A stretch of 64,000 nucleotides of DNA from Eledone cirrhosa (taxonomy: Eukaryota), in NCBI GenBank assembly GCA_964016885.1, contig OZ024746.1:98270001-98334000 (forward strand). The letters are read 5' to 3'. Both the position numbers and the translations under genes were made by a program. The number at the start of each line of letters is the position of its first letter. Positions within the stretch are counted from its first letter, which is position 1. The notes beneath the pieces were generated by a model. The model was not told where the DNA came from. It did no database searches and saw only the letters and a program-made list of their open reading frames with translations. Shown here piece by piece: positions 50,241-53,199 of this stretch.

Positions 50241-50297
50241 TATATATATATATATATATATATATATATATATATATTTATTAAAATAACAGATTAA

Positions 50298-50348
50298 AGT
50301 TTAAGCAAAGAATCGCTGCTTTCACCCTTAACGGGATCTTCTGAAACT
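50298..50348 (-). ncRNA. Type I hammerhead-like motif, CAGAAGA core variant
   Basis: Reverse complement of 52047-52097. Confidence 0.6.
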
Positions 50349-51719
50349 AACAAAGTCAATCTGTAAACGCAGAACTGGATATTTCAAAAAACGTTGCAAC
50401 CGGAGGAAGACAGAAAGACGATACTTTGGTTCGTGGTAACGTTCGCTGGCAAAGAACGGGAAAAAACGAATAATACGTCATTAATAGGAGCGGTGAAAAA
50501 CAATTACGCGCAAAGACAAAACCACGTTTATGGTATAAAAGAGGTCGTAGACTAATGTTCTCTTAGGTGGTTCATAGAGAGGTTCTCTGGCAATGAACGA
50601 AAAAACGAAGATAATAAGTCATATGTGGAGCGTGGAGAACAATAGCACGTAAAGACAAAACCACGTAAATGGTATAGCAGAAATCGTAGACTAAAATTCT
50701 AACTAGGAGACCAAATGAATCTCCGCTACAGAGTTAAGAACAAAGTAAATAAATACAATACAGAAGTAATAGAAACAAATAAATACATACACGCGAACAG
50801 ATACGTACATACACAAGCATACGCAAAACCTTACCATGGGTATACAAAACCACGCACATATAAATATGTGTGTGTATATGCTTGTGTACAAATAAATAAA
50901 TAATTATATAAACGTATATAAGTAAATAAATACGTATATAACAGGCGCACACGCATACCTACATATAAATACACGAATGTTCGGAGACGTAAGTCAACTA
51001 AAACAAGAAGTACACATATACACACACCCACCATACGTACGAACCTGCACACTCACGCGGACGCAAAACTCCCGTATACACATAGCCAAACCCTAAATAC
51101 CAAAATATGTAAAAATTATACGCTATAACAGTCAAATATACGTACGAGAAGGTATACATACCTTCACAAAACATACGGGTAATATATACTTACCTATGCA
51201 AATAAGTAAAGGAATAAACAAAACATATACTTAGCTCCCACATCAAGACGTGTGCGCCTGTTATATACGTATTTATTTACTTATATACGTTTATATAATT
51301 ATTTATTTATTTGTACACAAGCATACACACACACATATTTATATGTGCGTGGTTTTGTATACCCATGGTAAGGTTTTGCGTATGCTTGTGTATGTACGTA
51401 TCTGTTCGCGTGTATGTATTTATTTGTTTCTATTACTTCTGTATTGTATTTATTTACTTTGTTCTTAACTCTGTAGCGGAGATTCATTTGGTCTCCTAGT
51501 TAGAATTTTAGTCTACGATTTCTGCTATACCATTTACGTGGTTTTGTCTTTGCGTGCTATTGTTCTCCACGTTCCACATATGACTTATTATCTTCGTTTT
51601 TTCGTTCATTGCCAGAGAACGTCTCTATGCACCACCTAAGAGAACATTAGTCTACGACCTCTTTTATACCATAAACGTGGTTTTGTCTTTGCGCGTAATT
51701 GTTTTTCACCGCTCCTATT

Positions 51720-51906
51720 AATTGTTTCTACTTTAGGCACAAGGCCAGCAATTACCCAGTGCATTACTGGTACTTTATTTTATCGACCCCCGTAAGGATG
51801 AAAGGCAAAGTCAACCCCGGCGGGATTTGAACTTAGATCGTAAAGGGACGTAACTATGCTGGAAAGCATGGCGTCCGACCCTCTACCGATACTGCCAATC
51901 CACCGC
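51720..51906 (-). mobile_element. SINE family A inserted into one arm, with TSD
   Basis: CACCGCTCCTATTAAT at 51707-51722 and 51901-51916. The SINE is absent from the other copies. Confidence 0.92.
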
Positions 51907-52046
51907 TCCTATTAATGACGTTTATTCGTTTTTTCCTGTTCTTTGCCAGCGAACGTTACCACGAACCAAAGTATCGTCTTCCTGTCTTCCTCCGGTTGCA
52001 ACGTTTTTTTAAATATCCAGTTCTGCGTTTACAGATTGACTTTGTT

Positions 52047-52097
52047 AGTTTCAGAAGATCCCGTTAAGGGTGAAAGCAGCGATTCTTTGCTTAAACT
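52047..52097 (+). ncRNA. Type I hammerhead-like motif, CAGAAGA core variant
   Basis: agttt-CAGAAGA-t-CCC gttaa GGG-t-GAAA-GCAG cgattct TTGC-TT-aaact. Confidence 0.62.
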
Positions 52098-52419
52098 TTA
52101 ATCCGTTATTTTAATAAATATTTGCTCTACGGTTCTTATATATTTGACATATATTTTCCTTATCGAGCCCTCTTTGGATTTTAGTCTTCAATTTTATTAT
52201 TATTACTATATATATATATATATATATATATATATATATATATATATATATATATATATATATATAATATATATATAATATATATATATATATATATATA
52301 TATATATATATATATATATATATATATATATATATATATATATATAATATATATATATATATATAATATATATATATAATATATTATATATATATATATT
52401 TATTAAATTAACAGATTAA

Positions 52420-52470
52420 AGTTTAAGCAAAGAATCGCTGCTTTCACCCTTAACGGGATCTTCTGAAACT
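52420..52470 (-). ncRNA. Type I hammerhead-like motif, CAGAAGA core variant
   Basis: Identical motif on the reverse strand. Confidence 0.6.
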
Positions 52471-52955
52471 AACAAAGTCAATGCTTGTGTATGTACGTAT
52501 TTGTTTGCGTGTATGTATTTATTTATTTCTATTACTTCTGTATTGTATTTATTTACTTTGTTCTTAACTCTGTAGCGGAGATTCATTCGGTCTCCTAGTT
52601 AGAATTTTAGTCTACGACTTCTGCTATACCATTTACGTGGTTTTGCCTTTGCGTGCTATTGTTCTCCATGACCCACATATCACGTATTATCTTCGTTTTT
52701 TTCGTTCATTGCCAGAGAACGTCTCTATGCACCACCTAAGAGAACATTAGTCTACGACCTCTTTTATACCATAAACGTGGTTCTGTCTTTGCGTGTAATT
52801 GTTTTTCACCACTCCTATTAATGACGTATCTTATTCGTTTTTTCCCGTTCTTTGCCAGCGAACGTTACCACGAACCAAAGTATCGTCTTCCTGTCTTCCT
52901 CCGGTTGCAACATTTTTTGAAATATCCACTTCTGCGTTTACAGATTGACTTTGTT

Positions 52956-53006
52956 AGTTTCAGAAGATCCCGTTAAGGGTGAAAGCAGCGATTCTTTGCT
53001 TAAACT
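52956..53006 (+). ncRNA. Type I hammerhead-like motif, CAGAAGA core variant
   Basis: Identical to 52047-52097. Confidence 0.6.
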
Positions 53007-53199
53007 TTAATCTGTTATTTTAATAAATATTTGCTCTACGGTTCTTATATATTTGATATATATTTATCCTTATCGAGCCCTCTTTGGATTTTAGTCTTCA
53101 AATTTATTATTATTAATATATATATATATATAATATATATATATATATATATATACATATATATATATTTTTAGTGTATATAACATGAATGACAATAAA

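What the first reader, a model, noticed from the sequence alone, without database searches (positions are those of the whole stretch)
50275..53112. Non-coding, TA-targeted element carrying four identical hammerhead-like motifs with a non-canonical CAGAAGA core (candidate retrozyme or non-autonomous PLE)
Seen: a unit of about 0.7-0.9 kb with no recognisable ORF occurs as two inverted pairs, each bounded by (TA)n. Each unit end holds agttt-CAGAAGA-tCCCgttaaGGGt-GAAA-GCAGcgattctTTGC-TT-aaact. This gives a type I HHR topology: 5-bp stem I, U-U mismatch at the base of stem II, and a 4-bp stem III. The normally invariant U4 is A in all four copies. A fifth terminus at 46928-46988 is truncated right at the core. 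Known: PLE pLTRs and metazoan retrozymes carry type I HHRs, and PLEs often insert with inverted pLTR segments. Inference: this is either an active ribozyme variant or a family that amplified despite a dead ribozyme, using PLE machinery in trans.
Basis: partly seen in the sequence, partly recalled or inferred. Interest (0 to 1): 0.72.

Follow-up and report, generated by a model that had tools for sequence, protein, structure and literature searches.

The report
Braked hammerhead in Hydra-type Penelope retrotransposon
These repeats are the cut-short ends of an abundant jumping gene whose hammerhead-shaped RNA motif carries A at a core position that is U in its relatives and has kept that change while its loops drifted, so it is likely a slowed self-cutting RNA, which is untested and would help show what such motifs do for these elements.

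Summary
The four motifs are real, but the element is neither a retrozyme nor a separate non-coding family. The arms match the 3' UTR of an autonomous 3,243-nt Penelope-like retrotransposon of the Hydra clade (93-99%), whose 713-codon RT + GIY-YIG frame is intact elsewhere. Inverted 5'-truncated pairs, a one-sided 90-nt tail and (TA)n targeting are known traits of such elements. The unusual part holds: 18,366 genomic copies of the core 30-mer have A4, 181 another base; older subfamilies have A4 too (68 of 75); none of 52 motifs in related elements has it. Between old and young lineages 0 of 51 stem and core positions changed against 17 of 57 free ones, among them N7. Helix III can fold without a partner, unlike in relatives. 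Against efficient cutting: 5' ends of copies show no peak at the predicted cut (2 of 88) and pile up 115-140 nt downstream. Best reading: a throttled ribozyme; rival: a catalytically dead fold read by the element's protein. No RNA data. The scan noted this family before in this genome (e1-10310971).

The parts
50276..51251 (-). Insertion 1, inverted arm: unit positions 2285-3243 (3' UTR from just after the stop codon to the AATAAAT end), no tail, abuts (TA)n
   Evidence: 95% over 978 nt to the full-length copy in L082
51249..52119 (+). Insertion 1, forward arm: unit 2583-3243, interrupted by a SINE-like insertion
   Evidence: 93% and 98% in two pieces
51723..51902 (.). Unrelated interspersed repeat (SINE-like; label by recall) inserted later, with a 14-bp direct repeat at 51709 and 51903
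   Evidence: many other copies in the window; direct repeat
52120..52209 (+). 90-nt tail = unit 1-90, the start of the next unit, ending at (TA)n
   Evidence: 99%; the same piece precedes the coding frame in longer-than-unit copies
52210..52397 (.). (TA)n tract between the two insertions
   Evidence: sequence
52398..52482 (-). Insertion 2, short inverted arm: unit 3159-3243, no tail
   Evidence: 99% over 85 nt
52481..53028 (+). Insertion 2, forward arm: unit 2718-3243
   Evidence: 93% over 548 nt
53029..53119 (+). Tail of insertion 2 (unit 1-90), ending at (TA)n
   Evidence: 97%
50298..50348 (-). Hammerhead-like motif 1 (stem I to stem I'), core CAGAAGA, C3 at 50343
52047..52097 (+). Hammerhead-like motif 2, C3 at 52052
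52420..52470 (-). Hammerhead-like motif 3, C3 at 52465
52956..53006 (+). Hammerhead-like motif 4, C3 at 52961, A4 at 52962; predicted cut after 53001; distal helix 52941-52948 with 53007-53014
   Evidence: the cut site is a prediction from the topology
46927..46988 (-). Fifth terminus, a 62-nt 5'-truncated copy (unit 3182-3243) between (TA)n tracts, lacking C3-G8
   Evidence: 98%

Best explanation
The region is two 5'-truncated, inverted-pair insertions of the 3' end of an autonomous Hydra-clade Penelope-like retrotransposon, and the hammerhead-shaped motif at each end carries a family-wide U4-to-A change that likely slows self-cleavage without abolishing it. Shown: identity of the element; two fixed 3' ends, 27 and 117 nt downstream of the predicted cut; many copies that run through that site intact; A4 fixed in young and old subfamilies; stems and core unchanged while N7 and loops changed; a helix III that can fold alone. 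Inferred: the element's endonuclease nicks (TA)n on both strands and reverse transcription is primed at the two AU-rich sites, giving one arm with and one without the tail; both priming sites lie 3' of the cut, so the template has to survive uncut or be re-ligated; relatives are slow because their helix III needs a partner, and this family, able to fold alone, would use A4 as the brake while residual cutting still does a job that keeps the active-site letters under selection.
For: Element; clade motifs against PMC8557442 section 11 and supplement. A4 fixed: 18,366 against 181; 68 of 75 older copies (counted by eye); 12 of 13 untruncated old copies found without imposing the core. In those 13, G5, A6 and A9 are 13 of 13, G8 12 of 13, N7 is T in 8 and A in 5; N7 also varies among relatives. 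Lineage-level changes: 0 of 51 stem and core against 17 of 57 free positions, p = 6e-6; core alone 0 of 12, p = 0.03; inside the conserved block 7 of 17 loop against 0 of 51, p = 2e-5. Pair 15.2-16.2 is G-C here and C-G in 49 of 52 related motifs, a swap that keeps helix III. Helix III segment is 17 nt and folds alone (-3.6 to -3.8 kcal/mol); in 52 of 52 related motifs it is 6-10 nt and none folds alone. Tail on exactly one arm in 17 of 20 inverted pairs. 19 of 36 copies holding the ORF start run intact through the upstream site. A natural U4C hammerhead is much slower in vitro yet supports viroid infectivity (PMC3088659, passage).
Against: No cleavage or RNA data. 5' ends of ORF-start copies: 2 of 88 within 2 nt of the predicted cut (2.6 expected), 48 of 88 at unit 88-117 (15.8 expected) (first 100 of 363 places), so the cut does not set the template's 5' end; no matching test was run on a canonical-core family, and the by-eye look at short copies showed no clear peak in either family. 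In a pairwise mutagenesis of a type III hammerhead all changes in the CUGA turn except the C3-G8 swap gave low activity (PMC9901934, passage). The hammerhead fold has low weight in ViennaRNA (0.0001-0.006 in the 8 sequences folded), and in the window copy A4 favours a rival pairing of the core with GAAA (0.40 against 0.02 with U). No significant compensatory change within the family's stems was seen. The old-young comparison follows one lineage, the distal helix was defined after seeing the data, and lineages that changed on both sides of the motif would have escaped both search patterns.
Confidence: 0.5

Rival explanations
1. Same element, but the motif is catalytically dead and is kept as a folded 3'-end signal that the element's own RT/endonuclease binds to choose its template and priming sites.
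For: No cut footprint in 5' ends; both priming sites need the RNA intact across the site; CUGA-turn mutants have low activity; 3' ends of copies often consist of little more than this block; Naiad elements are reported to spread without canonical hammerheads (PMC8557442).
Against: The single core position that changed between lineages is N7, the one free in working hammerheads, while G5, A6, G8, A9, G12-A14 and the NUH triplet stayed; a protein could impose this, but need not. One free position of about 12 is thin evidence (core-only p = 0.03).
Confidence: 0.3
2. The A4 core is an efficient ribozyme in its natural setting (extended helix I, tertiary contacts or protein help); it cuts tandem transcripts into 3,243-nt monomers that are ligated to circles, which the RT copies round.
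For: Longer-than-unit copies join unit 3243 to unit 1 seamlessly and extend upstream by very variable lengths, three of 36 back into the ORF; a re-ligated circle leaves no 5'-end peak at the cut; the conserved distal helix resembles the periphery of fast natural hammerheads (recalled); circle model proposed in PMC4209133.
Against: 5' ends pile up at unit 88-117, more simply read as the end of a linear RNA; template jumping also gives longer-than-unit copies; no fast U4A hammerhead was found in the searches.
Confidence: 0.15
3. One reading: a non-autonomous element or retrozyme of 0.7-0.9 kb that borrows a Penelope-like machinery in trans.
For: The window copies have no coding frame; most family termini are short, non-coding pieces (depth contrast; 363 matches at the ORF start under a restrictive pattern).
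Against: Arms are colinear with the 3' UTR of the coding element at 93-99%, with arm starts that differ from copy to copy; no tandem monomer arrays were seen in the loci examined.
Confidence: 0.03

Closest known systems
Hydra clade of C-terminal EN+ Penelope-like elements (Craig et al. 2021, PMC8557442; read: introduction, section 11, passages, supplement part 2 and alignment passages)
   Same: Single ORF, RT then GIY-YIG; RW(R/K), DKT, CxCX5C linker, no CCHH, CxxC and CxH round the conserved E and N; (TA)n targets; partial tandems, inverted 5'-truncated arm, one-sided tail; type I hammerhead near the 3' end, often with U after A9 and U before GAAA.
   Different: A4 in place of U4 (26 of 26 Hydra rows in File S2 have ctga); G15.2-C16.2 in place of C-G; 17-nt helix III with a real loop; 3,243 nt with a 1-kb 3' UTR holding 135-nt subrepeats; 90-nt tail against the 30-40 bp stated for Naiads; a different family from Hydra-1_Obim (sequences compared by eye).
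Minimal dimer-type hammerheads of metazoan Penelope-like elements (Cervera and de la Pena 2014, PMC4209133; parts 1-2 of 4 read)
   Same: Type I topology, place in the pLTR, short helix I, extra nucleotide after A9; weak cleavage reported in vitro.
   Different: Those keep CUGA (the variant named is U3-A8) and have a minimal palindromic helix III; this one can fold as a monomer and changes position 4.
Natural hammerhead core variants (Perreault et al. 2011, PMC3088659; passages and part 2 of 7 of section 3 read; figures not seen)
   Same: A change at a normally invariant core position kept in a natural replicon; U4C in a viroid is slow but sufficient.
   Different: U4A is not named in the text (0 occurrences); here the change is fixed in over 18,000 copies and through older subfamilies.
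Metazoan non-LTR retrozymes (PMC7229834, passages only; bioRxiv 10.64898/2026.07.22.740005, part 1 of 5)
   Same: Type I hammerhead and Penelope-like ancestry.
   Different: Retrozymes are short non-coding tandem monomers; this is the truncated end of a coding element.

Membership tests
Hydra-clade Penelope-like element | Single ORF with RT followed by C-terminal GIY-YIG endonuclease | tested here: met
   713-codon open frame with YRDDGL and IVYKCK...YIGLT...R...E...N; 483 relatives at E <= 1e-10, many with PF26215, one listed with PF01541. Pfam scan of two copies gave no RT or GIY-YIG hit; PDB search empty.
Hydra-clade Penelope-like element | RWK motif and DKT in place of DKG | tested here: met
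   RLRWRAF (R for K) and SDKTGN (the L082 copy has NKT); Hydra-1_Obim has RMRWKAF and SDKTNN.
Hydra-clade Penelope-like element | CxCX5C linker, no CCHH, CxxC and CxH around E and N | tested here: met
   CNCRNRADC; PCDLC; ACKH; no cysteine pair between the GIY and YIG blocks in L082, definition.
Hydra-clade Penelope-like element | Insertion into (TA)n; pLTR tandems, inverted 5' arm, one-sided tail | tested here: met
   (17 of 20 pairs with one tail).
Hydra-clade Penelope-like element | Placement inside the clade in an RT tree with the published members | not tested
   Published proteins were seen only as text; comparison by eye.
Hydra-clade Penelope-like element | Canonical hammerhead (CUGANGA) in the pLTR | tested here: not met
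   A4. A trait reported for the clade, not part of its protein definition; this is the respect in which the family is a variant.
Type I hammerhead ribozyme | Three helices round the core, helix I open, NUH at the cut | tested here: met
   Descriptor hit 5+3+5 bp, CUU triplet; stems unchanged between lineages. Not the minimum-energy fold.
Type I hammerhead ribozyme | Invariant core C3 U4 G5 A6 N7 G8 A9 / G12 A13 A14 A15.1 | tested here: not met
   All but U4; N7 varies. No Rfam match.
Type I hammerhead ribozyme | Site-specific self-cleavage | not testable with these tools
   Indirect test on 5' ends of DNA copies shows no peak.
Non-LTR retrozyme | Non-coding tandem monomers of fixed length, each with a hammerhead, independent of a coding element | tested here: not met
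   Arms are variable-length 3' ends of a coding element.

The most novel reading that the evidence does not exclude
A natural, catalytically active U4A hammerhead: a retrotransposon that gained a self-folding helix III traded the clade's dimer dependence for a core brake, kept it through successive waves of amplification, and shows that the uridine turn can be rebuilt with adenosine and that Penelope-like elements are selected for slow cleavage.
Probability: 0.35. Interest if true: 0.72.

Novelty: new variant of a known kind. Interest (0 to 1): 0.52.

Why it matters
What hammerheads do for Penelope-like elements is stated as unclear in PMC8557442. Here one very abundant family with intact coding copies carries a change at a position held invariant in its relatives, next to a canonical-core Hydra family in the same genome. 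Either outcome of a simple cleavage assay is informative: activity would add a new tolerated core and support tuning for slow cleavage; no activity would show that the fold is kept for a non-catalytic role. The element architecture itself is known.

Tried and rejected
DNA search of the own genome gave nothing because common words are skipped; patterns were used. Rfam: no hammerhead match. Pfam and PDB sequence searches: no useful hit. No RNA holder listed; the four runs laid are contigs of unknown kind and say nothing on expression or ends; A stands at position 4 in all four, but labels B and C may hold the same organism's DNA, so I claim no second species. A sister family with U4 and the same stems was sought: 189 matches; the 30 loci fetched, plus 9 stretches, read by eye as fold-back junctions at the near-palindrome round the core, or single mutants. 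A search with the closest database protein (57%) returned only this family. DNA transposon with long inverted repeats: rejected, the arms are unequal and lead into an RT frame. Cleavage footprint in short copies: by eye about 4 of 75 against about 10 of 80 breakpoints at the site for the A4 and the canonical family, too weak to use. Compensatory C-G to U-A change in helix II: 2-3 old copies, as many as chance transitions give (by eye). A conserved rival hairpin using the core: weight 0.40 in the window copy but 0.05 or less in the 7 old copies folded, rejected. Literature: no paper with 'U4A' or 'CAGANGA' with hammerhead, none relevant; 0 occurrences. Lunse et al. 2017 on Penelope-like hammerhead variants and the 2017 Terminon paper are not held and were not seen; either, or figures and supplements of the papers read, could contain a U4A example.

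Full report
Observation. The window comes from a 3.0-Gb animal genome. In 50275-53120 lie two inverted pairs bounded by (TA)n, each arm ending in the same 51-nt motif with core CAGAAGA. A relaxed type I descriptor finds these four and only 0.02 hits per shuffle. The fifth terminus at 46927-46988 is cut inside the core. Rfam finds no hammerhead and the fold is not the minimum-energy one.

What the element is. The 30-mer over the core has 18,366 exact matches in the genome. In 20 longer stretches the arm follows directly on a frame with RT and GIY-YIG motifs. Of 86 scored protein matches, 17 have a 713-codon frame without stops (counted by eye; five checked). One full copy (L082) defines a 3,243-nt unit: 1-90 tail, ATG at 132, stop at 2261, C3 at 3176, predicted cut after 3216. 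The window arms match unit 2285-3243, 2583-3243, 3159-3243 and 2718-3243 at 93-99%, and the forward arms go on into unit 1-90. The protein has the marks that PMC8557442 gives for the Hydra clade. No tree with published members was built. So these are ordinary 5'-truncated insertions of an autonomous element.

How it inserts. 3' ends fall at two sites, unit 3243 and unit 90, both AU-rich and followed by (TA)n. In 17 of 20 inverted pairs exactly one arm has the tail. I infer priming from both strands of a nicked (TA)n tract at the two sites. Both lie 3' of the predicted cut, so the template was uncut or re-ligated there. Of 36 copies holding the ORF start, 19 run intact through the upstream site, three back into the ORF, none starts at the cut. 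In a sample not chosen for intact frames (first 100 of 363 places, 88 with a breakpoint in the tested window), 2 start within 2 nt of the cut (2.6 expected) and 48 at unit 88-117 (15.8 expected). That points to an RNA 5' end just after the tail, or an RT stop at a small hairpin there, or a collision on a circle; it does not point to the hammerhead cut. The same test was not run on a canonical-core family.

The A4 core. Only 181 matches have another base at position 4 (36 of the 100 listed are T, by eye). U4 versions read by eye as fold-back junctions or single mutants. Older subfamilies with other loop sequences have A4 in 68 of 75. With a pattern anchored only downstream, 13 of 77 copies reach well past the core; A4 in 12, G5, A6, A9 in 13, G8 in 12, N7 T in 8 and A in 5. 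Comparing 75 young with 18 + 22 old copies, using for each position a set in which it was not imposed and leaving out six positions imposed in both, 0 of 51 stem and core positions and 17 of 57 free positions changed at lineage level; inside the conserved block it is 0 of 51 against 7 of 17. Limits: the flank filter let some truncated copies through, the distal helix was defined after the fact, and this is one lineage. One old copy with 43% protein identity still carries A4 (L278; a decayed copy).

Against relatives. All 26 Hydra rows of File S2 have ctga. In 78 metagenome loci, 61 hits (52 distinct) gave 48 CTGA, 2 TTGA, 1 CCGA, 1 TAGA and no CAGA; loci without a hit were not examined further. 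Pair 15.2-16.2 is C-G in 49 of 52 and G-C here. Their helix III segments are 6-10 nt and none folds alone; here it is 17 nt and folds at -3.6 to -3.8 kcal/mol. The window itself holds a second Hydra-like family, about 35% identical in protein, with CTGAGGA at 35609 and 43301. In the 7 old copies folded, U at position 4 would lower the weight of the hammerhead fold because it pairs with helix III; in the window copy it would slightly raise it.

Literature. PMC4209133 reports weak in vitro cleavage of minimal dimer-type motifs and proposes circles. PMC3088659 notes that U4C is much slower yet supports a viroid and that U4 contacts the A6-N7 phosphate. PMC9901934 finds low activity for CUGA-turn mutants. 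No U4A example turned up; two relevant papers were not held.

Verdict. Identity as Hydra-clade 3' ends: about 0.97. For the motif: slowed but active 0.5, dead fold read by protein 0.3, fast with circles 0.15. The brake argument is inference. New variant of a known kind; interest 0.52.

Noticed in passing
window 33385-35680 and 42254-43370: Second Hydra-like Penelope family, about 35% protein identity, with a canonical CTGAGGA hammerhead at 35609 and 43301, ending at (TA)n; a natural control.
   Followed up: partly
L251, L252, L249, L250, L224, L240 (G000:C1): Tiny fold-back insertions whose junction sits in the near-palindrome round the core and so creates a U4 core without stem I; seen twice in the first 5 Mb of C1. 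Fold-back priming of cDNA is a guess.
   Followed up: partly
L258-L287: Several old truncated copies begin right at stem I, often after an extra G; possible stop or re-start hotspot, not counted against a null.
   Followed up: no
unit 88-117 (L428-L527): Pile-up of 5' ends just after the tail end, over a small hairpin with a UUCG or CUCG loop; the RNA's likely 5' end and one priming site nearly coincide.
   Followed up: partly
window 50427-50700, 51502-51715, 52601-52877: Diverged subrepeats of about 135 nt (76-84% alike) inside the 3' UTR.
   Followed up: no
window 39848-39890: Another hammerhead-like core (CTGATGA ... GAAA) with a decayed twin near 39635.
   Followed up: no
window 45762-45840 and 54160-54250: Two long near-perfect hairpins, probably fold-back ends of other retroelements.
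   Followed up: no
window 51723-51902 and many other places: Abundant SINE-like repeat; by recall it resembles an octopod SINE, which would make the host a cephalopod; not tested.
   Followed up: no
L180:2103 and L211:1938: Two metagenome Hydra-like elements with the U3-A8 covariant core.
   Followed up: no
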